Shown here piece by piece: positions 39,362 to 52,032 of a stretch of DNA of 64,000 nucleotides; position 1 is the first letter of the stretch, and every line of letters begins with the position of its first letter. A program made the translations under genes and the position numbers. The notes under the pieces are model-generated. The model had not been told where the DNA came from and ran no database searches. It worked only from the letters and a program-made list of their open reading frames with translations. The DNA comes from a virus, in the IMG/VR virus record IMGVR_UViG_3300016445_000001. The stretch is one strand, 5' to 3'.

Positions 39362-40269
39362 ACCCCCGACAGCAGGACGATCGCCAGGGGCTGGTCCAGC
39401 CCGAGGGCGGCTGCCCGCTGAGTGTCGGACCGGAACGTCTTGCGGGGCTCGTCCCGGTAGAGGGGGCCTGCCATGAACGGCAGCTCGTCCGCGTAGAACC
39501 CGCAGCGGTTGCGCTGCATGACGATCGCGTTGCCCGCGGGGATCTGGCGGCTGACCATCACATCGAGGGTGAGGATCTTCTGCGGGAGCGTGCCGGTGTA
39601 GAGCAGGTTCTCGCTGGCGATGTCACCCACGTAGGGAGCCGCGAACGTGTTGCTTTGCAGCAGCGTGTTCTTGGTCCCGTGGTTGATGATCAAGGTGTCG
39701 GCCTCAAAGCCGAGCCACTGCGTCAGCCCCGACGGGGAGAACGTGGCGGCGTTCTCCACCAGGTAGCACGCCTGTGCCAGGTCGGCCCGGATCGTCGCGC
39801 CCGCGCTCGCCCAGGTGTTGGCGACGGCGAGGGTCTGGATCGAGGCGTTGGCCACCACCGCGCTGTAAAAGGCGGTGTTCCACGAGTAGACCATCGTGTT
39901 CTTGACCTGGAGGAGCTGCCTCGTCACCGGGTCGATGGTCTGCCGGCGGCGCATCTCGTCCGACACCATGATCGCCATCGCGCGCTCGTGGCTGAACACC
40001 ACGCGCGGGATGCCGATGGACGTCGGCACGATCGGCACCTCGGCGAACTCGGCGCGGATCTCGGGGAAGTCATCGGCGTAGAGCGGAGTGGATTCGGCGT
40101 ACCGGACCGCGCCGCTCGGGGTGTTCCCGCCATCGCGCAGCACAGAGTCGATCACGAACTCGTTCTGCGTGATGTCGAGAATGAGCTGCGGAATGACCAG
40201 CGGGTCTTTCAGCAGCTCGTTGACGGTAACTCTCGGGCCATCGCTGTACCCGCGTGCGGCGACCGGCAT
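39358..40269 (-). CDS. major capsid protein
   Basis: 303 aa behind GAGGAGCTGA. Lies after the protease/scaffold and decoration genes. Length and composition fit an HK97-fold capsid protein. Confidence 0.75.
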   Translation of the reverse strand: MPVAARGYSDGPRVTVNELLKDPLVIPQLILDITQNEFVIDSVLRDGGNTPSGAVRYAESTPLYADDFPEIRAEFAEVPIVPTSIGIPRVVFSHERAMAIMVSDEMRRRQTIDPVTRQLLQVKNTMVYSWNTAFYSAVVANASIQTLAVANTWASAGATIRADLAQACYLVENAATFSPSGLTQWLGFEADTLIINHGTKNTLLQSNTFAAPYVGDIASENLLYTGTLPQKILTLDVMVSRQIPAGNAIVMQRNRCGFYADELPFMAGPLYRDEPRKTFRSDTQRAAALGLDQPLAIVLLSGV

Positions 40270-40282: not shown

Positions 40283-40777
40283 TCAGAAGATCCTGGCCCG
40301 GCCCAGGAAGAACGACGATGCTCCGATGCCGCCGATCGGCTGGGTGAGCTGGCCGGCAGCCACGCCTCCGGGGTGTGTGCAGCGGCCGATAACCTGGCCG
40401 AACGTGCCCGCGCCGACCGTGACCACGGTGCCGTTGGCCCCGGCGATCAGCAGCGTGCCCGGGACCACCGCGCCGGCGTACCAGACCCAAATGTCAACGG
40501 GGCCGTGGTAGACGGCGGTGAAGTCATCGAGCACCGAGATGTCAAGCTGCGGCTCGCCGTAGGTGTTGGTTGGCGGCGGGATCTGGCTGGCCAGCACGTT
40601 GGCGTCCTTGGCCGCCACGCCCAGCACGTTGCTCGACCCAGCCGCGCAGGGCTTCACCGTCAAGTCGGTGGTGCCTGCGGTCTGCGTCGTGTTCTCGACA
40701 AGCTGGCCGCCGAAAGTCAGCGCGCTGACCTGGTAGCTAGCCGGTCCCTGCTTGTAGTGCGGGAGAACCGCGGTCAC
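40283..40777 (-). CDS. head decoration protein candidate (DUF2190-like)
   Basis: 164 aa. Pattern NVLGVAAKDA...GAVVPGTLLIAGANGTVV...GQVIGRC resembles DUF2190 capsid-cement proteins. Confidence 0.5.
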   Translation of the reverse strand: MTAVLPHYKQGPASYQVSALTFGGQLVENTTQTAGTTDLTVKPCAAGSSNVLGVAAKDANVLASQIPPPTNTYGEPQLDISVLDDFTAVYHGPVDIWVWYAGAVVPGTLLIAGANGTVVTVGAGTFGQVIGRCTHPGGVAAGQLTQPIGGIGASSFFLGRARIF

Positions 40778-40788: not shown

Positions 40789-40989
40789 CTAGTTGCTGTT
40801 GGTCACGGCGGTTGCCTCGCCGAGGGTGTCTCGGAACGCGGTCACCCGGGCGGTGCCACCCGCCGTGGTGACCGCGCTCAGCTCAGCGGCGGACAGCTCG
40901 ACCACCGTCCCGGCGACCAGGGTGCGGGCCGGGTTGGGGCCGGACGCGGGGATGGTCACCGTCTTGGTGATCACCTGGCGGGCCATCAC
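40789..40989 (-). CDS. hypothetical small protein
   Basis: 66-aa ORF. Confidence 0.45.
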   Translation of the reverse strand: MMARQVITKTVTIPASGPNPARTLVAGTVVELSAAELSAVTTAGGTARVTAFRDTLGEATAVTNSN

Positions 40990-42233
40990 TGGGTCCTGAT
41001 CTGGAACAGTTGCGCCCTGGCCCGCCGCAGCACGTCGTTGCGGGCCTCCTCGGCGGCGGTGTCACCCTCGGGCTCGTCCATCTCCGAGCCCAGCTCCACG
41101 CCGATGCCGAGCTGCTGGCCGAGCTTCTGGTACTCGGCGAGGATGCGGCGGACGATCTGCCCGGCGTCCACGCTCTTGCCGTTGGCCAGGTCCACCACGT
41201 GGCCTGCGCCCTCCAGCAGCGGCTGCGCCAGGTCGGCGATGAACGGCGGGGTGCCCGCGCCGACCAGCTTGCGGCGCTCGTTCTGCCACCGCTCGTTGTC
41301 GAGCTGGGCGGTGATGATGCCGAGCTGCCGGGCGTTCTCGTCCACGCCGGCCTGGGCCAGCTCGATCGCCATCGCGGTGCCGTCGGCCGGGTTGGACAGG
41401 CCCGCTCCTGCTGTAGCGGGGGCTCCCTGCTGTTGCTGGCCGCCCTCCTGCGCGTCCAGCTCGGCCTCCAGCGCGGCCAGATCCTCGTCAGACATGGCGT
41501 CAATCGCGGCGGCGATCTGGTCCAGCTCGGCGTCCTCGTCACCGGCCGGCGGGGCCGGGGGCGTAGCCGGGTCGCCGTTCAGCGCGCCCGCCGCACCTTG
41601 GGTGATCCCGGTGCCGCCGCCCGCCTCCAGCAGCGCGGCCAGCTTGTCCGGGTCAAGATCGAGCAGCTTGGCCAGCTTGTCCTGCTGGTCTGCGGTCAGC
41701 TCTGGCATGACATCTCCTGTGAATTGGGCACCGGACAGGTCGAAAGTGATCGACACGTCATTGGCTGCGGCGACGGCTTCCCAGCCGCCCATGCCGGGGA
41801 TTCGGGGGTCGAGCGTGCAGAGCACGTGCTGCACCGCGCGGGGGAAGAACTTGCCGTCGGACCGGTCGAACTGCTCCACGATCCGGGCGGATACGCCGAC
41901 GCCGGGGTTATCCTCCAGCACCGCCTGCCCCCTGCTGGTGGGCACCACCTCGATGTAGAGCCCGTCATCGCCGAGGGTCATGTCTGTGATCTGGCCCCCG
42001 GTGCGCTCCACGTCGTTGGTGTGCTTGTTGTCCGCACCGGCGAGCTGGAATGGCACCTGGTCGTAGGCGCTGGCCTTGAAGCTGTTCACCAGGTCGGCCA
42101 GGTAGCCGCGGGTGAACTTGAGCACCCGGCCCTGGTAGTTGATCTCCCCGATGGGCAGCAGCCGCTTCCGCCACCGGCCGCCGGCCTGCTTGGCCTTGGC
42201 CCCGGTGAACGGGGTGAGGACTGCGATGCTCAC
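40986..42233 (-). CDS. capsid maturation protease / scaffolding protein (Mu protein I-like) candidate
   Basis: 415 aa. N-terminal LLPIGEINYQGRVLKFTRGYLADLVNSF...VPFQLAGADNKH resembles Mu-I-type proteases. Acidic coiled-coil C-terminal half is typical of scaffolds. Confidence 0.55.
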   Translation of the reverse strand: MSIAVLTPFTGAKAKQAGGRWRKRLLPIGEINYQGRVLKFTRGYLADLVNSFKASAYDQVPFQLAGADNKHTNDVERTGGQITDMTLGDDGLYIEVVPTSRGQAVLEDNPGVGVSARIVEQFDRSDGKFFPRAVQHVLCTLDPRIPGMGGWEAVAAANDVSITFDLSGAQFTGDVMPELTADQQDKLAKLLDLDPDKLAALLEAGGGTGITQGAAGALNGDPATPPAPPAGDEDAELDQIAAAIDAMSDEDLAALEAELDAQEGGQQQQGAPATAGAGLSNPADGTAMAIELAQAGVDENARQLGIITAQLDNERWQNERRKLVGAGTPPFIADLAQPLLEGAGHVVDLANGKSVDAGQIVRRILAEYQKLGQQLGIGVELGSEMDEPEGDTAAEEARNDVLRRARAQLFQIRTQ

Positions 42234-43462
42234 GAGCTGGCCTTGGCCGCCATGTTCTCGGCCCGCTTGGCGAACGCGAGCGCCCGGTCTGGCGGGAAGC
42301 CGCGGGCGATCAGCTTCTTGCGGATCGCCTCACCCTTGGCCCCGAGCCCGTTGCTGTTGCCGCTGTCGCCGTTGGCCCCGCTGGTGGTCCGCGGCCCGTC
42401 CCCGCTGCCGTTGGACGGCGTGGCCAGCGCGCGGATCGCCGGGATGCCGAGCCGGCGCATCAGGTCAGACTGCGCGGGCGGCGGCTGGAGCGGCTCACCG
42501 CGGACCACGCGGTCAGCGGTGGGCCGGTGCTGCGGGGTGAGCGCGCCGCGGTTGTGGACGCCGATCAGCTCCAGCAGCGCGCCGCGCTGGCGGGCGTGCG
42601 GCTGGTAGTCCTGGCCAGCCCGGGAGGCTCGCCACCCACCGTCATCGCCGTGCCGGATGCGGCCGATCTCGCCGCCGCCGCGGCGGTGCCGGACCACGGC
42701 CGAGCCGTCCTCGGGATCGCGGCTGATCACCAGGTCGTAGGGGCTGGTGACGGGCAGGATCGTGTCCACGGTGAACTCCAGGGCTGGGCCGGTGTTGGAC
42801 GCGGCCCACGACTGCTTGAGGGCCTTGGACTTGCCGAACCGGGAGGCGGTGCGGCGCAACAGCCGGGCCACCGCGGCCCGCCGTGCCGGGGACTTCACCC
42901 GGCCGATCGCCTGGCGGGCCTTGTCCCACTGCCGCGGGGAAGTGACCGGGAACCCGTGCGGGGCTCCGGGGCTCGGCGGTGCGATGGCCAGGCCGCGCTT
43001 GAATGCGGACGCCCGGCCGCCCTTTGTCTCCGACGCCGGCCCCTTGGCGAGCAGGATCTCCAGCAGCGGGTGCCCGTTGCTGAGCCGCCAGGCACCCTCG
43101 CCCTTGACGATCTCGCTGCCCTGCACGGCTGAGGCGGCGGCCTTGCGCACGTGGGTGATCTCGGCGGCCAGGCCGCCTTTCATCAGCACCTTGCCGATGT
43201 TGTGGTCGTAAACGCCGCGGACCGTGGTGCCGCTCGGGGTGCGCCCTTCCACCACCTGCTTGTGCAGGCTGACGGCGTTGCCGCGGGCCAGCCAGTTGCG
43301 CTTGGCGGTCGCTGATGCTGTGTCGTGGGCCTTGGCGCTGGCCGCTGCTTTGGTGGCGGCAGACCAGTGGTCGCCGTCACCGCCTCGGTGGCCTGCGTCC
43401 CACGCCGCCCAGTCCAGGTCGATCACCCTGGAGGACGTCACATCCCCGCCTCCGGTCGCCAT
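42230..43462 (-). CDS. hypothetical protein (first gene after the tandem operator-like sites)
   Basis: 410-aa ORF. Alternative GTG start at 43441 lies behind GGAGG. Confidence 0.55.
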   Translation of the reverse strand: MATGGGDVTSSRVIDLDWAAWDAGHRGGDGDHWSAATKAAASAKAHDTASATAKRNWLARGNAVSLHKQVVEGRTPSGTTVRGVYDHNIGKVLMKGGLAAEITHVRKAAASAVQGSEIVKGEGAWRLSNGHPLLEILLAKGPASETKGGRASAFKRGLAIAPPSPGAPHGFPVTSPRQWDKARQAIGRVKSPARRAAVARLLRRTASRFGKSKALKQSWAASNTGPALEFTVDTILPVTSPYDLVISRDPEDGSAVVRHRRGGGEIGRIRHGDDGGWRASRAGQDYQPHARQRGALLELIGVHNRGALTPQHRPTADRVVRGEPLQPPPAQSDLMRRLGIPAIRALATPSNGSGDGPRTTSGANGDSGNSNGLGAKGEAIRKKLIARGFPPDRALAFAKRAENMAAKASS

Positions 43463-43563
43463 TCAGGGACCGGCGCACGCGGGGACTTGCGCGCCGACTC
43501 GTCTAGCTCGGCATGCTACGCGCTGTTTTCGTGGTGCGGAAAGGGCAGGGCGAGAATTGAGTG

Positions 43564-43596
43564 CCTGTAAGTACAGGTGAGGACTGTAAGTACAGG
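43564..43596. promoter_or_regulatory. two tandem operator-like sites CCTGTAAGTACAGGTG / aCTGTAAGTACAGGTG (19-bp register)
   Basis: Read directly at 43564-43577 and 43583-43596, in the 138-bp gap upstream of gene 42230..43462. Confidence 0.6.
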
Positions 43597-43600
43597 TGTC

Positions 43601-44086
43601 CTATTCGTCTTGCAGCGGGATCTCGGGCGGCGGTGCGATGCCCTTGGCCGCCATCGCGCTGGACATACCGGAGTAGTCCGTTGCGAGGTTGGCATAGACG
43701 CTGTAGAGGAGGGTGATGAACACGCCAACCACCAGCCAAAAGTCCTGATGCCAGAAGAACAGCCAGACGATCACCGGGAAGTTCAGCAGCCAGTAGAGGA
43801 CGCCGATCCGGTGGACGTGGAACTGGGTGTCGGGGTCTGTCTCCAGCTTGGCCACGGTGGCGCGGCGCTGCTCCAGGGTCGGGATGCGCGGCTTGACCAG
43901 CATCTGGTAGGCCACGCTGATCAGCGCCACGCCGGCGATGCAGGCGACCACCAGGCCCGCGGTGCGCCCGGCGTCCTTGTCGGTGACCGCGGCGGCGACC
44001 AGGAACCCCAGCAGCGCGTAGCGCAGCCAGTGGGTCCTGATCACCGCCCGGACGGTGGACGGGCGCTCAGCCGATGGGCTGGCCAT
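43601..44086 (-). CDS. polytopic membrane protein
   Basis: 161 aa, four hydrophobic helices. Confidence 0.65.
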   Translation of the reverse strand: MASPSAERPSTVRAVIRTHWLRYALLGFLVAAAVTDKDAGRTAGLVVACIAGVALISVAYQMLVKPRIPTLEQRRATVAKLETDPDTQFHVHRIGVLYWLLNFPVIVWLFFWHQDFWLVVGVFITLLYSVYANLATDYSGMSSAMAAKGIAPPPEIPLQDE

Positions 44087-45026
44087 CGTTCATCTGCTCG
44101 GCGATCCCGGGCTCGGGGTCCTCGGGCTCGGGGTCCTGAATGGCGACCGCCTCGCGGTGCCACTCACCAGGCCCGGCCCACTGGACCGTGCCGTCATCTG
44201 TGGTCGTTGCCATCGCCTTGATCCGCTCCTCAACATGCGGGGGCCAGTAGCCGTTGCCGGTGGCGAAATGGTAGGCACCGCCGATCGCGCGGGTGTAGGC
44301 CCCAACCTTCTCAACGTCCTCGGGGGTGTCGAGTATTGCCACCGGGTCGATGTCAATCCGGCCCATGTCGTCATCGTGAAAGACGCCCAGGTGGAACGTC
44401 TCACGCTCCAGCGCCGGGCGGAACTCAGCGAGCGCCCGGTCCATCGCCGCGTTGAACTCTGCCTCGGTGGCGTGCTCGGGCACGCTGATGGTGTGCATGC
44501 CGCGCGGCTTGACGCTGATCGCGTACTTGTCGGCGTTGTGGGCCAGGAACTCGCCGCTGTGGCTGTCGATCGTGGCCCCGCCCCAGCTCTGTTGCGCCTC
44601 GGTGAACGCGCGGTGCTTGATCTCGGCCCAGTGCTGGTCCATGCCGGTGATCGGTGAGGCGTCCCTCTTGCTGCGGTCGATCCAGGCGTTGCCGAGCGCG
44701 GCCAGGTGCTGGAACTCAGCCGAGGACACCGGGCGGCTGTTGCCGCGGTTGCCCTCCTCGCCGATCTCGGGATAGTGCCGGTGCGCCGGCCCGGGGGTCG
44801 GGCCGAGCTGCGGGGTGACGGCGTGCTCGGCACCGGTGCCGGGGATCTTGGTCCACCGGCCCTTGTCGTCGCGGAGCTGGAAGGGGTTGAACACCAGCTC
44901 GATCAGGTTGGCGATTACGTCGCCGGCGTGGTCGGCGGTCAGTGGCGGGTCCGCGCTGCCGTGCGCGAGCACCGCGCCGGGCGGGCCGAGCGGCCCGGAA
45001 TAGTCAGGCGGGAGCCGGACGGTCAT
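44067..45026 (-). CDS. hypothetical protein carrying the short R/D-x-G-R-W linker motif
   Basis: ATG 45026 overlaps the upstream TGA. 319 aa. FNPFQLRDDKGRWTKIPG near the N-terminus, GIAEQ near the C-terminus. Confidence 0.55.
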   Translation of the reverse strand: MTVRLPPDYSGPLGPPGAVLAHGSADPPLTADHAGDVIANLIELVFNPFQLRDDKGRWTKIPGTGAEHAVTPQLGPTPGPAHRHYPEIGEEGNRGNSRPVSSAEFQHLAALGNAWIDRSKRDASPITGMDQHWAEIKHRAFTEAQQSWGGATIDSHSGEFLAHNADKYAISVKPRGMHTISVPEHATEAEFNAAMDRALAEFRPALERETFHLGVFHDDDMGRIDIDPVAILDTPEDVEKVGAYTRAIGGAYHFATGNGYWPPHVEERIKAMATTTDDGTVQWAGPGEWHREAVAIQDPEPEDPEPGIAEQMNDGQPIG

Positions 45027-47905
45027 GCTGCCTCCTGCCACCGTTTCTTGAGATGGCTCATGATGTAGTCCCCCCACCACTTGGCTGGCGGCCGGGGGTG
45101 GCTGGACATCGTGTATTCCTTCCACAGCTCGGCCTCAAGCTCCAGCGGGTCGGTGACCGCGTAGGCCGACACCTGCCGCTTGATCGTGTCCTCGTGCTCG
45201 ATCACCCAGGAGCCTGGGTCGGGGGTCTGGCGGCCTGAGATCGGGTCCTTGAAGGTGTCCGGGGGCTTGACGCCGAGCACCTTGGCCAGGCCGGCCCAGG
45301 AGTCGTTGAGGGCCTGCTGCGGGATGCGGTCAACCACCACGTGGCCCATCTCGTGCGCCACCGTGGTGTCCGCCAGGTTGTACTGCGGATCGCTGGGCGT
45401 CCACCAGCCGCGGGCCTCTACCCGTTTCTTCTCGCGGTCGGACCAGCCACCGGTGAGGACGTTGCTCACGTTCGGCGACACCTCGATCTGGTCGCCGCCT
45501 TGGGTGAGCGTGACGCCCATCACGCCCTTGTTGCCCTCGTACCCCTCGGGCTTCTCGATGCGGATCACCTGGTGCCCGGCGATCTTGGGGATGAACCTGG
45601 ACTGGAGATCGAGGCTGTGCTGGATCTCGGCGATGGCCGCCTGGGCCTGCGCCGGCGGCGGGATCATCCCGGGCAGCACCATCGACACGTCGCCGTAGTG
45701 GCGGCCCGCGGCTGGTGCGGGCACAGCCGGGGGAGCTGGCGCTAGCGGTGCTGGCAGCGGCGTGGGCTCGGGTGCCGGGGGAGCTGGAGCTGGCCGCGGG
45801 CGGGGAGCCCGTACTGTCGCCTTGTCCTTGCGGACCACCAGGACACCGGCGTTCGGCTTGGCATCGTCCTCGTAGATCGCCGGGCCGTTGGGGTCGCGCA
45901 CCACGATGTGGACCCGCTTGCCCCGGTGCCGGACCGACGTCACCTCCATCATGAACGGGCCGATGCCCAGCCGCCCGAACTTGATCCAGTCGCCGCGCTT
46001 GAGCGTGGTGGCCCTGGCCCTGACCGGCTCCTGCTGCGTCACCCAGTCGGGCGGCCGGTCGATGCTGCCCTCCTCGTAGCCCGTATCCCTCATCACCACC
46101 TGGCGATCTTGGACGTGCGCCATCGCCCAGTCGCCGTAGAACTTGGCCGCGGGCCGCGGGTGGCTGGAGGTGGTGTATTCACACCACAGCTCGGCCTGCA
46201 TCTCGGCGAAATTGGTGGTGCTGTACTCCGAGATGTGCGGGGTGATCTCCTCGGCGTAGCCGACGGTCCAGCTCGGGTCGGTGCGCCACTGCCGGGTCAC
46301 CGGGTCCAGCGTCCGGCCTGGCGGGGGGATACCCATGATCTTGGCCAACTCGGGCCACATCGCGTCCATCTCGGCGGGGTCGATGTGGTCGGCCACGACG
46401 TGCCCCACCTCGTGAGACACGGTGCGGTCGGCGAGGCTGACGCCCGGGTCTGACGGCACCCACCACTGCTTTTTGATCTCCGCGGCCAGCTCCTCCTTGG
46501 AGTGGCCGCCGTTGAGCGCGTCAGCGGCGATTGGGGCTATGTCGATGATGTCCCCGTTGGCCAGGGTCACGCCGAACGTCAGCTCGTTGGCATCAGGGAT
46601 GTGCTGCCGTATCTCCACGTCCTGGCCTGCGGCGATGTGCGGCACATACTTGGCCTGCCGATCCAGCCCGGCCTGGATCTCGGCGGTAGCAGCGCGCACC
46701 TGCTCCTCGCTGGCGAACCCGCGGGGCAGGGTGCTGTGGACGCCGGGGTGCGGCTGGTCGAACACCTGCTGCGCGCCGGGCGCGAACCCGGGGAACGCCT
46801 CGCCGGCGACCTTGCCGATCTTGTGGAACGCCGAGCCCAGCGAGGGCTCGGCCCCTCCGGTGCCCTTGATCCACTTGCCACCAGGCCCGCGGGCCTCGTG
46901 CATCCAGGCGTCGTGCCAGGCGAGCAGGAGGATCTGCTCGGCGATCCCCGCACCCTCCACCAGCTTGGTGTTGCCGAGCCCGCGCCCGCCGACGCCCATG
47001 CCCAGCGCGAACCGCTTGGCGTACTCCACCGCGAGATGCACGGGCAGGTCGATCCGCTGCACCTCAACCTGGCTGGACGGCCACTGCCCATTGGCGATCT
47101 TGAGTGCGGCGTCCGCGGCCTGCCGGTGGTGGCCGTCCAAGATGTAGTTCTCCCGGGTGGCCCACAGCGGCTCGGACAGCATGTGGAGGACTTTGGGGTT
47201 GCCTGCCCTGGCGGCGCGGTAGATCCCGGCCACGCTGGTGGCGGTGAGCTGGGTCTGCGTGGCGCGCAGCTCGGACACCGGCACCTGCTCGTTGGTGACC
47301 TGGATTCCGTCGGTGTGGAGCTGGCGGCGGAACTCAGGGTCCAGCTCGATGAACCGGTTGGCCCCGCCGGCCAGGACGGCGGCCTCACTGCCTGGCTGGG
47401 CCGGACCGGAGAGCTGCGGCATGTCCTGCCGCGGAGTGCCGATCGTCTGCTCGTTGAACAGCCGGGTGCCCTTGACGCTGATGTTGGCCAGGTCCCACTT
47501 GGGCTCTGCGCCGGTGCGCTTCATCTCGGCATCGCCCTGGCGGTTGATCTCGTCCATCAGGCCGGGCACCTCGTGGACGCCGTTGAGCCGGACGTGCTGC
47601 CCCGCGGCCATCAGCTCGACCGCGCGCTTCATGTCGCCGCGGACGTCGATCGGGTCGGCGGCGGTGCCTGCCGCTACTCCTTCCGGCCTGCCGGGCCGGT
47701 TCAGCGCCTCGTGCCCGGCAGCCGGTGTCATCGAGGGCCGGTAGACGTCCTCGCCGGCGAACCGGCCGCGGTAGGCGTGGCTCTCCGGGCCGGCCGCGCC
47801 GGGCAGGCTCTCGCCGTGGGTCCACCGGCCGCGGGTGTCCCGCATCTCGTGCTGCCAGAACGCGAGCAGGATCTGCTCAGCTATTCCCGGGCTGCCCACC
47901 GGCAC
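45023..47905 (-). CDS. polyvalent-type protein: ParB/Srx-like domain plus two HExxH metallopeptidase-like modules
   Basis: 960 aa. YILDGHHRQ (aa 255-263). Duplicated modules of about 180 aa with HEVGH (aa 498-502) and HEMGH (aa 851-855). Pro-rich linker. Confidence 0.7.
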   Translation of the reverse strand: MPVGSPGIAEQILLAFWQHEMRDTRGRWTHGESLPGAAGPESHAYRGRFAGEDVYRPSMTPAAGHEALNRPGRPEGVAAGTAADPIDVRGDMKRAVELMAAGQHVRLNGVHEVPGLMDEINRQGDAEMKRTGAEPKWDLANISVKGTRLFNEQTIGTPRQDMPQLSGPAQPGSEAAVLAGGANRFIELDPEFRRQLHTDGIQVTNEQVPVSELRATQTQLTATSVAGIYRAARAGNPKVLHMLSEPLWATRENYILDGHHRQAADAALKIANGQWPSSQVEVQRIDLPVHLAVEYAKRFALGMGVGGRGLGNTKLVEGAGIAEQILLLAWHDAWMHEARGPGGKWIKGTGGAEPSLGSAFHKIGKVAGEAFPGFAPGAQQVFDQPHPGVHSTLPRGFASEEQVRAATAEIQAGLDRQAKYVPHIAAGQDVEIRQHIPDANELTFGVTLANGDIIDIAPIAADALNGGHSKEELAAEIKKQWWVPSDPGVSLADRTVSHEVGHVVADHIDPAEMDAMWPELAKIMGIPPPGRTLDPVTRQWRTDPSWTVGYAEEITPHISEYSTTNFAEMQAELWCEYTTSSHPRPAAKFYGDWAMAHVQDRQVVMRDTGYEEGSIDRPPDWVTQQEPVRARATTLKRGDWIKFGRLGIGPFMMEVTSVRHRGKRVHIVVRDPNGPAIYEDDAKPNAGVLVVRKDKATVRAPRPRPAPAPPAPEPTPLPAPLAPAPPAVPAPAAGRHYGDVSMVLPGMIPPPAQAQAAIAEIQHSLDLQSRFIPKIAGHQVIRIEKPEGYEGNKGVMGVTLTQGGDQIEVSPNVSNVLTGGWSDREKKRVEARGWWTPSDPQYNLADTTVAHEMGHVVVDRIPQQALNDSWAGLAKVLGVKPPDTFKDPISGRQTPDPGSWVIEHEDTIKRQVSAYAVTDPLELEAELWKEYTMSSHPRPPAKWWGDYIMSHLKKRWQEAA

Positions 47906-48035
47906 CTGCCGCTACAGCCTGGTCCACCAGCATGGTGGCCCCGCGCACCGCCTTGACCGGATCTTTCACGCCGGCCTGCTGGAGCCACGCGGCCATCGCG
48001 CCGATCGCCTGCACCCTGATCGCCGGGTCCAGCAT

Positions 48036-50393
48036 CTAGCTCAGCTTCGCAATCATGTCCACCAGCTCCTGAATGAGAGGGGGGCCAGCTCCTGCGGCGA
48101 GCGCGGGGACGGCGGGCAGGCCGACCGCGAGCAGCAGGCACGCGATCACCGTGCCGCCGACGATGATCCCGGCGTGGATGGCGAACGCCTTGCGGCGGCG
48201 CTTCCGGTCCTCCTCTGTCTCGGCCTCGGCCCGCTGGTCGTGCTCCTTGCGCACCTGCGCCAGCACGCCCTTGGTGTGGGTGATGATCCGCTGCTCGGCG
48301 TCCTCCTTGGTCACCGCCTTGGCCTGGATCTGAGCGATCTGCGCCATGAACTCGTGGCGCTGGGCCTCCAGCCGCACCTCCAGCTCGTGCTGGGTGATGT
48401 GCGCCTCGCCGGTGATCTGCTCGCGGTAGCCGGACACCTGGGCGACCATGCCGCTGCCGTACCTGGCGATCTGCTTGGGGGCCTTGTCGCCGCGCGGCAG
48501 GGTGGCGAACCGCGGGGCCGGGGTCGCTGGCTTAGGCCCGCTGCCGCCCTTGATCCACTGCCCTTTTGGGCCGCGTGTCTCATGCAGCCACGCCGCCGCC
48601 GCTCCCATCCCCTCGGCCAGCTCGACCGCCGTGCCGGGCTCGTTGGCCAGGCGGGCCTGCGCGAGCTGCCCGCGGAGCGTGGCGATCTGCGCCCGCACTG
48701 AGGCGATCTTGGCGCGCAGCGCCGCCCGGCTCGCCGAGCTGGTGCTGGCCTTTTTGGCGGTGCTCGCCGTCTTGCTGCTGGCCTTGGCGGCGGTGGACGT
48801 CTTTTTGGCCGCGGCGGCCTTGGTGGACGCCTTGCTCGCGGCTGTCTTGGTGGCCCCGGATGCGGTGGTGCCACGGGCGGCGGCGAGCTGGGACCGCAGC
48901 GTGGCCAGCTCGGACCGCAGGCCGGTGATCTGCGCGCGGATCTTGGCCACCGCCTGGCGGTCGCCAGCCTTGTCCTTGCGGGCGGCGACCTGCTGGGCCT
49001 CGCGCTTGCGCTGGGCCTGTGCCTGAGAGCCAGCTCCCTGCTGAGTAGCGAACCGGCCCCCAGGCCCGTGGTAGGGATTGTAGAAATCCAGCGTCCGGGT
49101 GGCCAGCCCGAGCACGGCATCAAGATCATCCCAGTCCGGGCTCGCGCCGGTGGCCAGCTCGATCAGCGTCTCGGCGATCTCCCACGGCTCCCCGGTGTTG
49201 GTGATCGACTCGGTGACGCTGCCAACGCCGAGCAGGTCGCCGGCCTTGTGCAGGTGACTGGCCACCCGGCCAGCGCCGTGCTGCATCTCGTGCAGCCGCT
49301 TCATCAGCTTGGTGTTCCACGCCACCCGCTCGACCGCATCCCTGACCAGCCCGTGGCCGCCGCTCTCCTTGGGCGCGGTCAGGTGGTCCCGTGTCTCCCG
49401 GTAGTGCCGGGCGCTCGTCTCCAGCGGCATGCCCGCACCTGCGGCTGCGGCCTCGGTGGCCCCGCCTAGCCACTCGCCGCCCTTGCCGCGCTTCTCCAGC
49501 GGGTTGAACGCCAGCTCCAGCGCGCCGGTGCTGCTGGAGTGGGCGTGGGCGCGGGCCTGGCGGGCAAGCTCGCTCGCCTCGGCCCGGCCGGCGGCAGCCC
49601 GCACCTCGGGATGCACGTGGCCGCCGCCGCGCATCCACTTGCGGATCGCGCCGCGGGCGATGGCGTAAGCCTTACCCGGCTCCATGCCGCGCTTTTCGAT
49701 CAGCGCCTTGACGATCTGCTGGAGATAGTCGGTGTGGCCCATGCCCTTGACGTCGTATAGGCCCGGACCACCGGGGCGTCCCCGGGGAGCGGGAGTCCGC
49801 TCCAGCATCGCGGTCCGGGCCGACAGCAGGATGCCTCCGCTGCTGTTGGACAGTGAGGCGTTGAGCTGCGCCTTGGTCGGTGCCCCTCCGGGCGGCCCCT
49901 GCACCGGCACCGGCTGGTCCGAGCCGCGCTGCTCCACGCTGGCCGGGCTGGAGCCGCTGCCGTTGCTGCCGGGCGGCTGCGGCGGCACGGACCCGTTGCC
50001 ACCGGGGGCCTGCTGCTGTTTGGCGGCCTGCTGGGCCTGCTGCCGGGCCTTGACCGCATCGCGGAGCTGGTTGTTGCGGGCGTGCGCGTCCTCGATGTCC
50101 TGCACCGCCAGGCGGTGCCGGTGGACCTGCCCCATGTGGTGCTTGGCGAGCGCGTGCCCCTCGTCATCCTTGATCCCGTGCCGGACCAGGTTGCGCGGGG
50201 TGAGCACCTCCATCGCGGCATCGAGGTGCCGTTTCGCGCCCTCGGTCGAGCCGTGCTCCAGCACCTTGGCGGCATCGCGGACGTGCGCGCCGGCCACCGT
50301 CTCGGGGTGATCACCGTCGATGGTGTTGGCGGTCGCGCGCATCTGCCGAGCAGCGGTTTGCTTCATCGGCGTGAGCGCGACTGGACGCGCCAT
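48036..50393 (-). CDS. large coiled-coil / low-complexity protein with C-terminal TM helix (virion-internal or ejection protein candidate)
   Basis: 785 aa. Ala/Lys/Thr/Ser-rich tract, heptad-like helices, three copies of the short G-x-W/F linker motif, C-terminal IIVGGTVIACLLLAVGL. Confidence 0.6.
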   Translation of the reverse strand: MARPVALTPMKQTAARQMRATANTIDGDHPETVAGAHVRDAAKVLEHGSTEGAKRHLDAAMEVLTPRNLVRHGIKDDEGHALAKHHMGQVHRHRLAVQDIEDAHARNNQLRDAVKARQQAQQAAKQQQAPGGNGSVPPQPPGSNGSGSSPASVEQRGSDQPVPVQGPPGGAPTKAQLNASLSNSSGGILLSARTAMLERTPAPRGRPGGPGLYDVKGMGHTDYLQQIVKALIEKRGMEPGKAYAIARGAIRKWMRGGGHVHPEVRAAAGRAEASELARQARAHAHSSSTGALELAFNPLEKRGKGGEWLGGATEAAAAGAGMPLETSARHYRETRDHLTAPKESGGHGLVRDAVERVAWNTKLMKRLHEMQHGAGRVASHLHKAGDLLGVGSVTESITNTGEPWEIAETLIELATGASPDWDDLDAVLGLATRTLDFYNPYHGPGGRFATQQGAGSQAQAQRKREAQQVAARKDKAGDRQAVAKIRAQITGLRSELATLRSQLAAARGTTASGATKTAASKASTKAAAAKKTSTAAKASSKTASTAKKASTSSASRAALRAKIASVRAQIATLRGQLAQARLANEPGTAVELAEGMGAAAAWLHETRGPKGQWIKGGSGPKPATPAPRFATLPRGDKAPKQIARYGSGMVAQVSGYREQITGEAHITQHELEVRLEAQRHEFMAQIAQIQAKAVTKEDAEQRIITHTKGVLAQVRKEHDQRAEAETEEDRKRRRKAFAIHAGIIVGGTVIACLLLAVGLPAVPALAAGAGPPLIQELVDMIAKLS

Positions 50394-50481: not shown

Positions 50482-51078
50482 TCAGGAAGGGACCGACGGG
50501 TCTGCACCGCCGTTGCCGGTCACCGTGGTGGTGCCGTCGCCACCGCCCGCGTCCGGTGTCACCGGGCCGTCAGTCGGCGTGGTGCCGCCGTTGCCCGTGG
50601 TGCCGTTGCCGGTGGCCGGCGGCTGCGCGGTGGGGTCCGGGGCCGGCCCGGGGTCAGGCACCGGCGCGATCGGGGCCGCTGGCACCGTCTGGCTGACCAC
50701 GCCCTGCATCGTGGTGTCGGCACCCTGGAGGCTGGCCAGCGCGGTGTTGGCCGCGGTGAAGTCCAGCGGCTGGTTGGCGGCCTGCGCAGCCTGCGCCTGG
50801 GTGATCCAGTTGCCCAGCACCGTCGCGGCGCTGTTCACATGGTCGGCTACCGCCTGCATCGCGGAGCCAAGATCGTTGAGCTGCGCCTGCTCGGCGGCAA
50901 AGTCGGTCATGTCCTGTTCCTTTAGGTCGGCAATCGCGGCGAGGATCTCGCGCTTCATCTCTGCCAGGGCTGCCGGGAGCACCTGGTCGGCCGTCACCAC
51001 GCTAGGCGGGGTGGTGGACAGGTCGATGATCAGGAACTGATCGCCGCTGGCGTCGGTCACGGGCACCGACGCTAGCAC
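50482..51078 (-). CDS. hypothetical protein with Pro/Gly/Thr-rich C-terminus
   Basis: 198 aa. GC3 favours this frame across the 77-nt overlap with the MuF gene. Confidence 0.5.
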   Translation of the reverse strand: MLASVPVTDASGDQFLIIDLSTTPPSVVTADQVLPAALAEMKREILAAIADLKEQDMTDFAAEQAQLNDLGSAMQAVADHVNSAATVLGNWITQAQAAQAANQPLDFTAANTALASLQGADTTMQGVVSQTVPAAPIAPVPDPGPAPDPTAQPPATGNGTTGNGGTTPTDGPVTPDAGGGDGTTTVTGNGGADPSVPS

Positions 51079-51709
51079 CGCCGACCAGCGCCGCGCCAGG
51101 GAACGGCGGGCCTGGCTCGCACCTGCATGACGGGTGGACGGCTCCGGGGTAACCGATCGGCGGCATCTGGTCGGCGCGGAAGTTGCGCCCGTTGGCCAGC
51201 CAGCACTCCAGGCTCGTCTTGGCGTCGATGTGGGCGTACCAGCCGAGCAGCAGCCCGTGCTCGCTGGCGGCGTTGTCCACCGCGGCGGCGGCGTTCTCGC
51301 GTGCCCAGTTGGCGGCCAGGTGCTGGCCGTAGTAGCGGGCCTCCCGTGCTATCCCCCGGGTGAGCGCATCGCCGAGCGGCTCGCCGTGGGCCTGCGCCTG
51401 CGCCAGGTCGGTGGTGATCCGCCTGGCTGCGGCGATCACGAACTGCACCCGGCGCATCAGGTTCAGCCGGGCCACCGTGGCGGTCGCCGGGCCGTAGAAC
51501 CCGGCCGGGGCCGGGGTCATGCGGAACACCACCCGCAGCGCGGCCTCCATCGCCTCGCGGCGGATCTTGAGGTAGGCCAGCAGCGGGATCAGGGTGGCCA
51601 TCGCGCCGGACACCAGCGCGCCGCCGGCGAGTATCGCGGCGAGGGCGTTGGCCAGCCGCTGCTGCGGTGACTGCTGAGGTGGCGGCTGCTGCGGTGGCGG
51701 TGTGGTCAC
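51002..51709 (-). CDS. MuF-like (SPP1 gp7 family) minor capsid protein
   Basis: GTG 51709 overlaps the upstream TGA. Hallmark C-terminal motif HIDAKTSLECWLANGR...PGAVHPSCRC. Confidence 0.8.
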   Translation of the reverse strand: MTTPPPQQPPPQQSPQQRLANALAAILAGGALVSGAMATLIPLLAYLKIRREAMEAALRVVFRMTPAPAGFYGPATATVARLNLMRRVQFVIAAARRITTDLAQAQAHGEPLGDALTRGIAREARYYGQHLAANWARENAAAAVDNAASEHGLLLGWYAHIDAKTSLECWLANGRNFRADQMPPIGYPGAVHPSCRCEPGPPFPGAALVGGASVGARDRRQRRSVPDHRPVHHPA

Positions 51710-52032
51710 TTGGCCGGCGGCTCGGGCAGCGGCACATCCACGGTCGCCTTGCCGCCCTGGATCGGGGTGAGCGCGGTCTGGATCGGCAGCAGGTCCGGCC
51801 GGTGGGTGTGCGGTGCCAGGTAGGCCGCGGCGGTGTGCATCAGCCAGGCCACGCCCATCGGCAGGAACGCCAGCAGCGGGCCGGGGATGCCGTCGTGCCA
51901 GGCCGGTATCCAGTACGTCAGGCCCCACACGATCAGGCCGGTGATGATGCCGGCCCAGCTCCCGATGGCGACCTTGGTTTCGACCAGGCTGTTGGGCGGC
52001 AGGAGGCTGCCGAGCGGATCGGGTGCGGTCAT
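51706..52032 (-). CDS. small membrane protein (2-3 TM)
   Basis: 108 aa between the portal and MuF genes. Hydrophobic WAGIITGLIVWGL and LLAFLPMGVAWLM. Confidence 0.6.
   Translation of the reverse strand: MTAPDPLGSLLPPNSLVETKVAIGSWAGIITGLIVWGLTYWIPAWHDGIPGPLLAFLPMGVAWLMHTAAAYLAPHTHRPDLLPIQTALTPIQGGKATVDVPLPEPPAK

What the first reader, a model, noticed from the sequence alone, without database searches (positions are those of the whole stretch)
45023..47905. Polyvalent-type virion-module protein: ParB/Srx-like domain plus duplicated HExxH metallopeptidase-like modules
Between the MuF gene and the capsid protease lies a 960-aa protein with a ParB/sulfiredoxin-type DGHHR motif (nt about 47137-47123). 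It also has two paralogous modules of about 180 aa, each carrying HE(V/M)GH (nt about 46414-46400 and 45355-45341) and a conserved E(L)W.EYT.SSHPRP tail. A Pro-rich linker joins them. Multi-domain proteins combining ParB-like and metallopeptidase domains next to MuF/portal genes are known as polyvalent proteins. They are thought to be packaged and injected to counter host defences. This domain combination with an internal duplication looks unusual.
Basis: partly seen in the sequence, partly recalled or inferred. Interest (0 to 1): 0.65.

Follow-up and report, generated by a model that had tools for sequence, protein, structure and literature searches.

The report
Phage polyvalent head protein, ParB-like plus two zincins
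This 960-residue phage head-module gene really does join a ParB/sulfiredoxin-like domain to two lethal-factor-like zinc-peptidase modules. That makes it a new example of the already described "polyvalent" proteins that phages are thought to pack into the capsid and inject. A short conserved peptide tag marks three of its module starts and those of its neighbours.

Summary
Window 45023-47905 (- strand) is a 960-aa ORF. DGHHR, HEVGH, HEMGH, both ELW.EYT.SSHPRP tails and a 44%-Pro linker sit at the stated coordinates.

- **Peptidase modules.** The two HExxH modules are true paralogues (41% identity, E 1e-50). A confident model (pLDDT 88.6) matches anthrax lethal factor and phage "MuF-like minor capsid/lethal factor" proteins. 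HExGH plus a downstream Glu are invariant across the family.
- **N-terminal module.** The model is moderate. Eight of its ten best PDB matches, including the top eight, are ParB/Srx proteins. It fails Pfam ParBc and ddrB-ParB, so it is a separate clade. This clade also occurs as a 149-aa Kuttervirus/Limestone protein annotated "structural".
- **Context.** Relatives carry the same N-module fused to DUF7178, alpha/beta-hydrolase, Arr ADP-ribosyltransferase or PI3/4-kinase domains. All lie in a conserved slot: TerL, Mu-type portal, MuF, [variable genes], scaffold, capsid.
- **Verdict.** This is a polyvalent protein in the sense of Iyer et al. 2017.

Corrections:
- No capsid protease was found next to it.
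- MuF is not adjacent.
- The two peptidase modules are not each other's closest relatives, which fits accretion rather than a recent tandem duplication.

New here: a ~20-25-aa motif (W/F..E.R...G.W) precedes three of its four modules and those in the two flanking genes. I read it as a capsid-targeting or processing tag. Function remains untested.

The parts
45023..47905 (-). Whole gene: 960-aa polyvalent protein. Order: J-tag, ParB/Srx-like N-module, J-tag, zincin M1, small unassigned segment, Pro-rich linker, zincin M2.
   Evidence: ORF list and translation. Homologues and conserved synteny.
47813..47881 (-). J1 junction/tag motif, aa 9-31 (AEQILLAFWQHEMRDTRGRWTHG).
   Evidence: Motif HMM hit, E 7.9e-11, in a six-frame scan of the window. 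Low pLDDT, so probably a linear motif in a disordered stretch.
47654..47812 (-). Gly/Pro/Ala-rich linker, aa 32-84, predicted disordered.
   Evidence: pLDDT below 50 over residues 1-79.
47456..47653 (-). N-module subdomain A, aa 85-150. It carries conserved DPIDV.GDM..AV.LM and HVRL residues; its function is unknown.
   Evidence: pLDDT about 65-90. Many invariant columns in alignment A4.
46991..47353 (-). ParB/sulfiredoxin-like core, aa 185-305. LRATQ is at aa 213-217 and DGHHR at aa 257-261 (nt 47137-47123).
   Evidence: Eight of the ten best PDB Foldseek matches, including the top eight, are ParB/Srx proteins. D257-R261 are invariant. hhalign to the 149-aa Kuttervirus protein gives prob 98.4, E 6e-15. 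phrog_2859 hit, 3e-13.
46856..46927 (-). J2 junction/tag motif, aa 327-350 (LLAWHDAWMHEARGPGGKWIKGTG).
   Evidence: Motif HMM hit, E 4.1e-9.
46103..46726 (-). M1, a lethal-factor-like zincin module, aa 394-601. HEVGH is at nt 46414-46400. The invariant Glu568 is at nt 46204-46202. The tail reads ELWCEYTTSSHPRP.
   Evidence: M-family HMM hit, 1.3e-64. Model pLDDT 88.6. Foldseek against PDB and BFVD. Invariant H, E, G, H, E.
45806..46099 (-). Unassigned segment, aa 603-700. It looks like a small beta-rich domain by eye. Apart from the 98%-identical P0001, the only hits among the fetched proteins are weak and compositionally biased.
   Evidence: No Pfam hit below E 1 (one hit at E 2.6). In a local phmmer search the clear hit is P0001; the rest (P0045 at 8.6e-8, others at 6e-4 or weaker) carry high composition bias. 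This segment was not modelled.
45704..45811 (-). Pro-rich linker, aa 699-734, 44% Pro.
   Evidence: Direct reading of the translation.
45041..45700 (-). M2, the second zincin module, aa 736-955. HEMGH is at nt 45355-45341. The invariant Glu922 is at nt 45142-45140. The tail reads ELWKEYTMSSHPRP. No J-tag precedes it.
   Evidence: M-family HMM hit, 2e-68. 41% identical to M1, E 1e-50. It keeps all invariant residues of the family.
48036..50393 (-). Upstream neighbour, a 785-aa unknown protein. It carries two significant J motifs (nt 49523-49458 and 48596-48543), an Ala/Lys/Ser/Thr-rich low-complexity stretch and a hydrophobic C-terminal segment.
   Evidence: Translation. Motif HMM hits, 4.4e-5 and 8.9e-7. 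No family hit.
44067..45125 (-). Downstream neighbour. The ORF is 352 aa, but the likely start is the internal ATG giving MTVRLPP. It has a J motif near its N-terminus (nt 44891-44838, FNPFQLRDDKGRWTKIPG). It is not a recognisable protease.
   Evidence: Translation. Motif HMM hit, 2.9e-5. No family hit.

Best explanation
The gene encodes a polyvalent virion cargo protein of a ~70% G+C phage. The host is probably an actinobacterium, inferred from composition and from the one related genome hit. The head module is SPP1/Mu-like.

Shown here:
- The protein is a chain of cassettes. One is a ParB/sulfiredoxin-fold module of a clade not covered by Pfam. Two are lethal-factor-like zincin modules with intact HExGH...E sites.
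- Relatives swap in other enzyme cassettes at the same genomic slot between portal/MuF and scaffold/capsid.
- The N-module and M1, and the modules of the two flanking genes, start with a conserved ~20-25-aa peptide (hydrophobic helix, then [WF]-x-[HP]-E-x-R-[DG]-x-x-G-x-W, then a Gly-rich linker). M2 has none.

Inferred:
- The protein is loaded into the procapsid, with the J peptide acting as the address or docking tag. This would parallel the T4 capsid-targeting sequence, or replace a covalent MuF fusion.
- One or both zincin modules then cut the disordered linkers, so the cassettes are freed inside the head or after ejection.
- The ParB/Srx-like module is injected with the DNA. There it binds or hydrolyses a nucleotide, or nicks or binds DNA, to protect or jump-start the incoming genome or to damage host or rival DNA.
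- The zincins may also cleave host targets.
For: - **Domain folds.** M1 model pLDDT 88.6, pTM 0.87. Top PDB matches are anthrax lethal factor (prob 0.85-0.96), then aminopeptidases, aureolysin, MMPs and Zmp1. BFVD matches include 'Minor capsid protein', 'Lethal factor', 'Metalloprotease' and 'MuF-like minor capsid protein [Mycobacterium phage Rope]', E 1.6e-7 to 5e-4, TMq 0.40-0.57.
- **Zincin topology.** N-terminal helix, three strands, an HExxH helix (aa 111-126 of the model) and a later Glu-bearing helix at 186-199. This matches the zincin core described in PMC5512222. Invariant residues are H, E, G, H and Glu188.
- **N-module.** Eight of the ten best PDB hits, including the top eight, are ParB/Srx. 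DGHHR is invariant and sits at a strand-to-helix junction.
- **Virion link.** The core is homologous to a 149-aa Ackermannviridae protein. One record annotates it 'unknown structural protein [Dickeya virus Limestone]'. The LIMEstone1 virion proteome lists 12 such proteins found by mass spectrometry (PMC3296691). The same family lies inside a Ralstonia phage 'DarB-like antirestriction protein'.
- **Modularity.** The N-module is fused to DUF7178, Abhydrolase_8, Arr-ms and PI3_PI4_kinase. The M family (283 cluster representatives at E<=1e-3) co-occurs with Phage_Mu_F, ADPrib_exo_Tox, NUDIX, Arr-ms and DUF4314.
- **A zincin is always present.** All 17 homologues found (16 distinct from this phage's own protein) carry at least one HExxH.
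- **Synteny.** Conserved in six loci.
- **J motif.** All 5 significant hits in the 64-kb six-frame scan fall in three adjacent genes; the next best hit has E 0.067. The pattern repeats in L001-L006. There are 108 instances in 64 of 171 proteins, and the first one lies within 60 aa of the N-terminus in 51 of those 64. The motif subtype tracks the downstream module: W.HE...WTHG precedes 13 of 15 N-modules.
Against: - No experimental datum exists for this protein or any close relative. Packaging, cleavage and injection are all inferred from position and analogy.
- Foldseek E-values against PDB are modest (1e-2 for M1, 3e-3 for N). The N-module model has mean pLDDT 58.
- The N-module fails every curated ParB profile. 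It shows no similarity to P1 DdrB.
- J motifs accompany only 41 of 134 near-full M domains. M-type zincins are absent from loci L002, L003 and L005, which still have J motifs. So a strict 'M cuts J' pairing is not supported. Those loci do carry a second HExxH type.
- M2 has no J motif.
- The 'structural protein' label for the Kuttervirus homologue is an annotation transfer. I could not map it to a specific LIMEstone1 ORF.
Confidence: 0.55

Rival explanations
1. It is a head morphogenesis or maturation protein rather than an injected effector. On this view the zincin modules serve as the capsid-maturation protease of a phage that lacks a canonical prohead protease. They would trim scaffold, MuF or the other J-tagged proteins, and the protein's job would end at assembly.
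For: No S78/U35/S49-type prohead protease was detected anywhere in the head module. Structural neighbours in BFVD include a protein annotated 'Capsid maturation protease [Mycobacterium phage Indlulamithi]' and several 'head morphogenesis' proteins. All 17 homologues found carry some HExxH domain.
Against: The head module has a separate scaffold gene and a 303-aa capsid protein. From general knowledge, this is the SPP1/P22-style layout, which needs no protease. M-type modules are missing from sister phages with the same capsid genes. The slot is hypervariable and filled with ADP-ribosyltransferase, hydrolase and kinase domains. That fits accessory effectors better than core assembly.
Confidence: 0.15
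2. It is a MuF-type polymorphic toxin relative. The cassettes would be toxins released or delivered against competing bacteria, for example from a prophage, rather than aids to the phage's own infection.
For: MuF-associated toxins include metallopeptidase domains in about 20% of cases, as well as ADP-ribosyltransferases (PMC5576092). Relatives here carry Arr-ms and ADPrib_exo_Tox domains.
Against: There is no MuF domain in this polypeptide. No obvious small immunity gene follows it; the next gene is another J-tagged protein. The lineage was found in metagenomic viral contigs of about 80 kb. It was not found as a prophage in 185,579 representative genomes; only distant hits of 36% identity or less appeared.
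Confidence: 0.08
3. The ParB-like call is a false positive. On this view the N-module is an unrelated alpha/beta domain, and DGHHR is a coincidental or different catalytic motif, such as a His-based phosphoesterase.
For: There are no curated ParB profile hits. The model's mean pLDDT is 58. Only about 100-120 residues align, at TMq about 0.2. The best profile hit to PDB, 1vk1, has E 0.96.
Against: The top eight PDB matches belong to a single superfamily, with probabilities from 0.47 to 1.00, and Noc follows at rank 10. Unrelated folds appear from rank 11 on, all at prob <=0.06. The motif position (strand, then D-G-x-H-R, then helix) is the ParB/Srx phosphate-binding signature. Another annotator independently labelled a member of the same family 'ParB domain-containing protein' (Vibrio phage GR28A).
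Confidence: 0.12

Closest known systems
Polyvalent proteins of phages and conjugative elements (Iyer, Burroughs, Anand, de Souza, Aravind 2017, J Bacteriol; PMC5512222)
   Same: It is a multi-cassette protein encoded among late/virion genes near portal and MuF. A zincin-like MPTase acts as hub domain, here in two copies. A ParB/Srx-superfamily domain is present. Relatives swap in ART, kinase and hydrolase domains. The closest solved structure for the MPTase is anthrax lethal factor, as in that paper.
   Different: The ParB-like module is not the DdrB-like clade defined there. Neither the M-type zincin family nor the N-module has a curated profile. The regular J peptide at cassette starts is not mentioned in the parts of the paper I searched.
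Phage P1 DdrB (dar antirestriction operon; ddrB-ParB PF18763 plus a C-terminal metallopeptidase)
   Same: The overall logic is the same: a ~1000-aa head-associated protein with an N-terminal ParB-superfamily domain and an HExxH peptidase. It is reported as processed before packaging (PMC5512222).
   Different: There is no detectable sequence relation. hhalign of the N-module profile against DdrB gives prob 0.2, and the M profile gives prob 1.8. DdrB hits PF18763 at 2e-39, whereas the target does not hit it at all. The target has two peptidase modules, and the head module is of a different type.
Ackermannviridae 149-aa protein (e.g. Salmonella phage rabagast gp59, CBA120 orf137; phrog_2859)
   Same: It is homologous to the ParB-like core (aa ~154-300), sharing MPQ, LR.TQ and DG.HR motifs. 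hhalign gives prob 98.4, E 6e-15. One record annotates it as a structural (virion) protein.
   Different: It is a stand-alone single domain in large myoviruses of Gammaproteobacteria. It has DGSHR instead of DGHHR, no J motif, no N-terminal subdomain and no peptidase.
Anthrax lethal factor / Zmp1-type gluzincins (MEROPS M34 and relatives)
   Same: This is the best structural match for M1. The HExxH helix is followed by a later Glu-bearing helix.
   Different: Sequence identity is 10-14%, TM about 0.4 and E about 1e-2. The module is much smaller (~210 aa), and the Glu lies about 66 residues after HExxH. It has the family-specific GWWVP.D and ELW.EYT.S..PRP motifs. Substrate and activity are unknown.
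T4 capsid-targeting sequence on internal proteins, and encapsulin cargo-loading peptides
   Same: These are functional analogies for the J motif. Each is a short, transferable peptide at the end of otherwise unrelated cargo proteins encoded next to capsid genes.
   Different: This is purely an analogy. There is no sequence similarity and no evidence here of binding or cleavage. J also occurs internally, at cassette junctions.

Membership tests
Polyvalent proteins (Iyer et al. 2017) | Two or more unrelated effector-type domains in one polypeptide. | tested here: met
   A ParB/Srx-like module plus two zincin modules. An extra subdomain and a middle segment remain unassigned.
Polyvalent proteins (Iyer et al. 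2017) | Encoded by a phage or mobile element among late/virion genes (portal, MuF). | tested here: met
   The gene order is TerL, Mu-type portal, MuF-like, 785-aa gene, target, then scaffold and major capsid. The same order holds in six related loci.
Polyvalent proteins (Iyer et al. 2017) | Domain shuffling among orthologous positions, with MPTase as hub. | tested here: met
   The N-module is fused to DUF7178, Abhydrolase_8, Arr-ms and PI3_PI4_kinase. All 17 homologues found carry an HExxH. The M family is linked to MuF, ART and NUDIX domains.
Polyvalent proteins (Iyer et al. 2017) | Packaged in the virion and delivered into the host at infection. | not testable with these tools
   Only indirect evidence is available: the annotation of a distant single-domain homologue as a virion protein.
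ParB/sulfiredoxin superfamily | [quoted passage not shown] | tested here: met
   Eight of the ten best PDB Foldseek matches, including the top eight, are ParB/Srx (prob up to 1.00, E 3e-3). The model is only of moderate confidence.
ParB/sulfiredoxin superfamily | A conserved Arg in a Gly-x-x-Arg-type motif at the strand-to-helix active-site pocket. | tested here: met
   DGHHR is invariant in 11 sequences. It lies between strand 254-257 and helix 259-271 of the model. The pocket geometry was not inspected.
ParB/sulfiredoxin superfamily | Nucleotide binding/hydrolysis or DNase activity. | not testable with these tools
   This needs biochemistry.
ddrB-ParB (Pfam PF18763) / ParBc (PF02195) | A match to the curated family profile. 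| tested here: not met
   No hit at E<=1 for the whole protein, or at E<=10 for aa 136-312. The positive control, P1 DdrB, hits PF18763 at 2e-39. hhalign to DdrB gives prob 0.2.
Zincin-like metallopeptidases (MPTase of polyvalent proteins; gluzincin type) | An HExxH motif on a helix plus a downstream Glu on a second helix, following an N-terminal helix and a three-stranded sheet. | tested here: met
   The model's element order is H20-38, E49-52, E65-68, E73-76, H111-126 (HEVGH) and H186-199 (Glu188). H, E, G, H and E188 are invariant in 49 sequences, which include both M1 and M2.
Zincin-like metallopeptidases (MPTase of polyvalent proteins; gluzincin type) | Structural similarity to solved zincins. 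| tested here: met
   Lethal factor gives prob 0.85-0.96, E 1e-2 to 6e-2. Further zincins follow down the list. Ten BFVD matches have E<=1e-3, and most carry peptidase, MuF or head-morphogenesis names. A sequence-only PDB profile search was not significant (E about 1).
Zincin-like metallopeptidases (MPTase of polyvalent proteins; gluzincin type) | Zinc binding and peptidase activity. | not testable with these tools
   This needs biochemistry.
MuF polymorphic toxins (Jamet et al. 2017) | An N-terminal MuF domain in the same polypeptide. | tested here: not met
   There is no Phage_Mu_F hit in the target. MuF is a separate gene at 51002-51928.

The most novel reading that the evidence does not exclude
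The J motif ([WF]-x-[HP]-E-x-R-[DG]-x-x-G-x-W, after a short hydrophobic helix) would be a portable capsid-cargo address tag, a cleavage signal, or both. Any enzyme cassette carrying it would be loaded into the procapsid of this phage lineage. 'Polyvalent' proteins here would then simply be strings of J-tagged cassettes that embedded lethal-factor-like zincins cut apart. That would be a phage counterpart of encapsulin cargo-loading peptides, and a rule-based way to read, or to engineer, what a phage injects.
Probability: 0.3. Interest if true: 0.75.

Novelty: new variant of a known kind. Interest (0 to 1): 0.5.

Why it matters
Polyvalent proteins are a large and almost entirely uncharacterised arsenal that phages are thought to inject ahead of, or along with, their DNA. 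This locus offers three things.

1. **A clean natural series.** The head module stays the same while the cargo slot varies among ParB-like, zincin, Arr-type ADP-ribosyltransferase, alpha/beta-hydrolase and PI3/4-kinase-like cassettes.
2. **Two uncurated domain families.** One is a lethal-factor-like zincin with 283 cluster representatives at 50% identity. The other is a ParB/Srx clade shared with Ackermannviridae virion-annotated proteins. Both could be added to annotation resources.
3. **A conserved peptide at cassette starts.** This makes the question of how cargo gets into the head and is released directly testable by mutagenesis and virion proteomics.

If the tag idea holds, it also gives a handle for loading chosen proteins into phage capsids.

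Tried and rejected
- **Curated profiles.** Pfam, NCBIfam and PHROGs on the whole protein and on sub-segments gave nothing useful. The exceptions were phrog_2859 (unknown function) and a sub-threshold UreF hit, which I regard as spurious.
- **PDB by sequence.** The single-sequence search found nothing. The profile searches gave only E of about 1, to 1vk1, myroilysin and MMP-2. These are suggestive but not evidence.
- **P1 DdrB.** A direct profile comparison showed no relation. I therefore dropped the idea that this is a DdrB orthologue.
- **Isolated phages.** Megablast of the gene against isolated phages found no match. tblastn of two J-motif peptides against them also found none.
- **Third homologue search.** Run with the N-module profile, it added only two proteins.
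- **Representative genomes.** The scan for prophage copies found only distant relatives of 36% identity or less, so the host remains unidentified.
- **M cuts J.** I considered that the M-type zincin specifically cleaves J motifs. I weakened this because J occurs in loci without M-type modules and most M domains lack a nearby J.
- **Recent tandem duplication of M.** Rejected, because each copy has closer relatives elsewhere.
- **Literature on the J motif.** Searches found nothing. This does not prove that it is undescribed.

Full report

Yes. Window 45023-47905 on the minus strand is an uninterrupted 960-codon ORF starting with GTG. I recomputed every motif position:
- DGHHR: aa 257-261, nt 47137-47123
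- HEVGH: aa 498-502, nt 46414-46400
- HEMGH: aa 851-855, nt 45355-45341
- ELW.EYT: aa 572-578 and 926-932
- SSHPRP: aa 580-585 and 934-939

A linker of 36 residues with 44% Pro (aa 699-734) precedes the second module. The two HExxH modules align at 41% identity over 191 residues, E 1e-50, so the repeat is not a chance pair of HExxH motifs.

The ORF is a genuine gene. One metagenomic protein is 98% identical. Sixteen more share 48-62% identity over part of it. The window has ~70% G+C throughout, so long spurious ORFs are common. The homologues and conserved synteny are what establish that this one is coding.

**2. Surroundings**

On the same strand, from upstream to downstream:
- large terminase, 53630-55258
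- Mu-type portal, 52029-53639 (Portal_Mu, 7e-33)
- weak MuF/SPP1-gp7-like ORF, 51002-51928
- 785-aa unknown protein, 48036-50393
- the target
- four unknown ORFs: 44067-45125, 43601-44086, 42230-43462, 40986-42233
- scaffold, 40283-40777 (phrog_673)
- major capsid protein, 39358-40269 (phrog_1650, 1e-70)

MuF is one gene further away. I found no prohead protease with Pfam, PHROGs, NCBIfam or PDB sequence search. A separate scaffold gene with a 303-aa capsid protein is the SPP1/P22-style layout, which does not need a protease; that last point is general knowledge, not tested here.

Elsewhere the window has a 1279-aa protein with NlpC/P60 and SLT_3 domains, which I take to be the tape measure, and a D5_N/DUF5906 primase-helicase. 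So this is a phage or prophage.

The gene has no near match among 50,697 isolated phage records. In 185,579 representative genomes only distant relatives appeared; the best was 36% identical, in an Actinomycetota MAG. Twelve IMG/VR contigs carry the N-module. The lineage is known only from metagenomes, with contigs of up to about 80 kb.

**3. The HExxH modules**

An exhaustive profile search with the two copies found 283 cluster representatives at E<=1e-3 and 104 at E<=1e-10. Most matches sit at the C-terminal end of proteins of 400-2700 aa. Some are stand-alone proteins of about 245-316 aa.

Across 49 and 68 aligned members the invariant columns are H, E, G, H of HExGH and a Glu about 66 residues downstream (E..AELW). 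W, P and R of the tail are nearly invariant. Both M1 and M2 keep all of them, so both look catalytically competent.

An AlphaFold model of M1 with a 49-sequence alignment is confident: pLDDT 88.6, pTM 0.87. Its element order matches the zincin core as described in PMC5512222: an N-terminal helix, three strands, a helix bearing HEVGH and a later helix bearing the Glu.

Foldseek results:
- Against PDB, anthrax lethal factor comes first (prob 0.85-0.96, E 1e-2 to 6e-2). It is followed by puromycin-sensitive aminopeptidase, aureolysin, LTA4 hydrolase, MMPs and Zmp1.
- Against BFVD, ten matches have E<=1e-3 (best 1.6e-7, TMq up to 0.57). Their names include "Minor capsid protein", "Lethal factor", "Metalloprotease", "MuF-like minor capsid protein [Mycobacterium phage Rope]" and "Phage head morphogenesis domain".

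Lethal factor (4dv8) is also the structure to which Iyer et al. tied the MPTase of polyvalent proteins. Sequence-only searches are not significant: no Pfam hit, and a PDB profile E of about 1. The call therefore rests on fold plus invariant residues.

I conclude that M1 and M2 are lethal-factor-like zincin modules of the polyvalent/MuF-associated kind. They belong to a family that has no curated profile.

**4. Is it a duplication?**

M1 and M2 are paralogues but not each other's nearest relatives. M1 is 51% identical to the stand-alone protein P0018. M2 is 46-48% identical to modules in P0026, P0028 and P0029. M1 and M2 share only 41%. This fits two already diverged cassettes joined in one gene, or an old duplication followed by spread. 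It does not fit a recent tandem duplication.

Among the 171 proteins fetched by that point, only the 98%-identical P0001 and one other (P0130) have two copies. For the class as a whole, multiple MPTases in one protein are documented: about 8% of MPTase-bearing polyvalent proteins.

**5. The N-terminal module**

Residues 17-350 form the unit shared by all 17 first-round homologues. D257-G-H-H-R261 and about 100 other positions are invariant in 11 sequences.

Curated profiles do not recognise it. There is no ParBc, ParBc_2 or ddrB-ParB hit, even at permissive thresholds. P1 DdrB, used as a positive control, hits PF18763 at 2e-39. Profile comparison with DdrB is null.

The AlphaFold model, built from only 11 sequences, is moderate. 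Mean pLDDT is 58, with about 65-90 for aa 85-150 and 190-300. The ends, the linkers and aa 151-187 are below 50.

Even so, the top eight PDB matches are all ParB/Srx: pNOB8-type ParB N-domain (prob 0.99-1.00, E 3e-3 to 2e-2) and human sulfiredoxin (prob 0.47-0.82). Atu1540, labelled only by name, follows at rank 9, and Noc at rank 10. Unrelated folds begin at rank 11, all at prob <=0.06. DGHHR lies between a strand (254-257) and a helix (259-271), which is the position of the GxxR phosphate-binding motif of this superfamily.

The core (aa ~154-300) is homologous to a 149-aa protein conserved in Ackermannviridae (hhalign prob 98.4, E 6e-15). They share MPQ, LR.TQ and DG(S/H)HR. Annotations of that protein and its relatives vary:
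- "unknown structural protein [Dickeya virus Limestone]". The LIMEstone1 virion proteome lists 12 unknown structural proteins found by mass spectrometry, one of 17.3 kDa (PMC3296691). Mapping the homologue to that ORF is my inference.
- "ParB domain-containing protein" in a Vibrio phage.
- Part of a "DarB-like antirestriction protein" in a Ralstonia phage.

I conclude that the module has a ParB/Srx-superfamily fold, at moderate confidence. It is a clade distinct from DdrB-ParB, with circumstantial links to virions and to anti-restriction-type giant proteins.

**6. Class assignment**

The same N-module is fused in other phages to DUF7178, Abhydrolase_8, Arr-ms (rifampin-type ADP-ribosyltransferase) and a PI3/PI4-kinase-like domain. 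The M family co-occurs with Phage_Mu_F, ADPrib_exo_Tox, NUDIX, Arr-ms, DUF4314, GNAT and others.

All 17 homologues found carry at least one HExxH. It is either the M type or a second "AFEV.EHE..HGV" type.

In six related loci the slot is the same: TerL, Portal_Mu, MuF, a variable number of unknown or cassette genes, a conserved ~400-aa protein, scaffold and capsid. Even a stand-alone M protein (P0024) occupies this slot.

These are the defining traits of polyvalent proteins as laid out by Iyer et al. 2017. That paper explicitly lists MPTase fused to "a distinct ParB domain".

**7. The junction (J) motif**

The N-module and M1 each begin with a ~20-25-aa peptide:
- AEQILLAFWQHEMRDTRGRWTHG, aa 9-31
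- LLAWHDAWMHEARGPGGKWIKGTG, aa 327-350

Across the fetched proteins, an HMM built from 92 distinct instances shows E(-2) in 86 of 92 and W(+6) in 89 of 92. R(0) and G(+4) were fixed by the pattern used to collect the instances. A hydrophobic or aromatic stretch precedes the motif and a Gly-rich linker follows it.

In a six-frame scan of the whole 64-kb window, the five significant hits (E 8e-11 to 4e-5) all lie on the minus strand in three adjacent genes. Two are in the 785-aa protein, two in the target and one near the N-terminus of the downstream gene. The next best hit has E 0.067. The same restriction to genes between MuF and scaffold holds in L001-L006.

Among 171 fetched proteins there are 108 instances in 64 proteins. 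In 51 of those 64 the first instance lies within 60 residues of the N-terminus. Multi-cassette proteins have up to five, spaced at cassette boundaries.

The subtype follows the downstream cassette. W.HE...G.WTHG precedes 13 of 15 N-modules, while F(N/D)P.E.RD..GRW dominates before other cassettes. The motif therefore belongs to the start of a cassette, not to the end of the previous one. AlphaFold gives it low confidence, as expected for a linear motif.

M2 is the exception. It is joined by the unassigned segment and the Pro-rich linker, with no J motif.

I found no mention of such a motif in the polyvalent or MuF-toxin papers, or in two further literature searches. It has no match in isolated phages by tblastn.

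**8. How it most likely works**

Shown: the cassette architecture, the folds, the intact catalytic motifs, the conserved slot and the J motif.

Inferred:
1. The protein is incorporated into procapsids. The J peptide would be a docking or address signal for a head component such as portal, MuF, scaffold or the conserved ~400-aa protein.
2. The zincin modules cleave the disordered linkers, as proposed for P1 DdrB and other polyvalent proteins. This frees the cassettes in the head or after ejection.
3. The ParB/Srx-like cassette acts early on nucleotides or DNA, through NTP-regulated binding or nicking, for protection, replication start or attack.
4. The zincins may have host targets as well.

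Arguments against a strict "M cuts J" model:
- Loci L002, L003 and L005 have J motifs but no M-type module, although they do have the second HExxH type.
- Only 41 of 134 near-full M domains have a J within 250 residues upstream.

I put about 0.8 on the identity (a polyvalent head-slot protein with ParB/Srx-like and two LF-like zincin cassettes). I put about 0.55 on the whole statement including packaging, processing and injection.

**9. Rivals**

- A morphogenetic or maturation protease role (0.15). This fits the lack of a canonical protease and some BFVD names. It fits poorly with the hypervariable slot and the scaffold-type head.
- A MuF-type polymorphic toxin (0.08). The polypeptide has no MuF domain, there is no obvious immunity gene and no prophage copies were found.
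- The ParB call is wrong (0.12). The evidence is weak but concordant.

**10. Novelty and score**

The class is known, and the ParB-plus-MPTase theme is published.

What is new:
- two uncurated domain families
- a ParB/Srx clade distinct from DdrB-ParB
- a previously unnoticed (as far as I could find) cassette-start motif shared by three adjacent head-slot genes

I rate it a new variant of a known kind, with interest 0.5. The motif hypothesis would deserve about 0.75 if shown.

Noticed in passing
window 47912-48035 (- strand): A 41-codon ATG ORF (MLDPAIRVQAIGAMAAWLQQAGVKDPVKAVRGATMLVDQAV) fills the gap between the 785-aa gene and the target. It is in frame with the target and separated from it by a single TAG. 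It may be a small gene, since related loci have small ORFs of 41-78 codons in the same module, or it may be nothing. No clear Shine-Dalgarno sequence is visible before the target's GTG.
   Followed up: partly
window 48036-50393 (- strand): The 785-aa upstream protein has no family hit. It has two significant J motifs, a third degenerate one (DFYNPYHGPGGRFATQQG), a long Ala/Lys/Ser/Thr-rich low-complexity stretch and a hydrophobic, transmembrane-like C-terminal segment. It may be another head-internal or ejection protein.
   Followed up: partly
window 40986-45125 (- strand): Four consecutive ORFs (352, 161, 410 and 415 aa) between the target and the scaffold gene have no Pfam, PHROGs or NCBIfam hit. 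The 415-aa ORF occupies the position of a conserved ~400-aa protein in all related loci. No prohead protease is recognisable in the head module.
   Followed up: partly
L005 8481-11794: In this related contig the polyvalent gene is called as two genes: 516 aa with PI3_PI4_kinase, and 597 aa. The N-module HMM match and its J motif start about 130 nt upstream of the second gene's called start. This suggests a frameshift, a sequencing error or a recent gene fission at a cassette boundary.
   Followed up: no
window 21684-27341 (- strand): A 1885-aa ORF with no Pfam hit lies downstream of the probable tape-measure gene. That gene (30490-34329, 1279 aa) carries NlpC/P60 and SLT_3 domains. The giant ORF is probably a tail or host-recognition protein.
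   Followed up: no
window 8508-11615 and 60358-61938: A DUF2637 protein (8508-9824, + strand) and a GntR/UTRA regulator (10272-11615, - strand) lie at one side of the window. A D5_N/DUF5906 primase-helicase lies at the other. I did not resolve whether the window is a free phage genome or an integrated element.
   Followed up: no
P0003-P0017 (homologues), e.g. P0012 aa ~1035-1055: A second, different HExxH domain type (consensus AFEV.EHE..HGV.P.G) sits at the C-terminal end of most N-module polyproteins that lack the M-type module. I did not model it or classify it.
   Followed up: no
L024 3938-4387 (Salmonella phage rabagast gp59) and one search hits: The stand-alone 149-aa homologue of the ParB-like core is conserved in 409 isolated phage records, including Ackermannviridae and Vibrio, Aeromonas, Ralstonia and Pseudomonas phages. 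It is annotated inconsistently as hypothetical, structural protein, cytidyltransferase, ParB domain protein, or part of a DarB-like antirestriction protein.
   Followed up: partly
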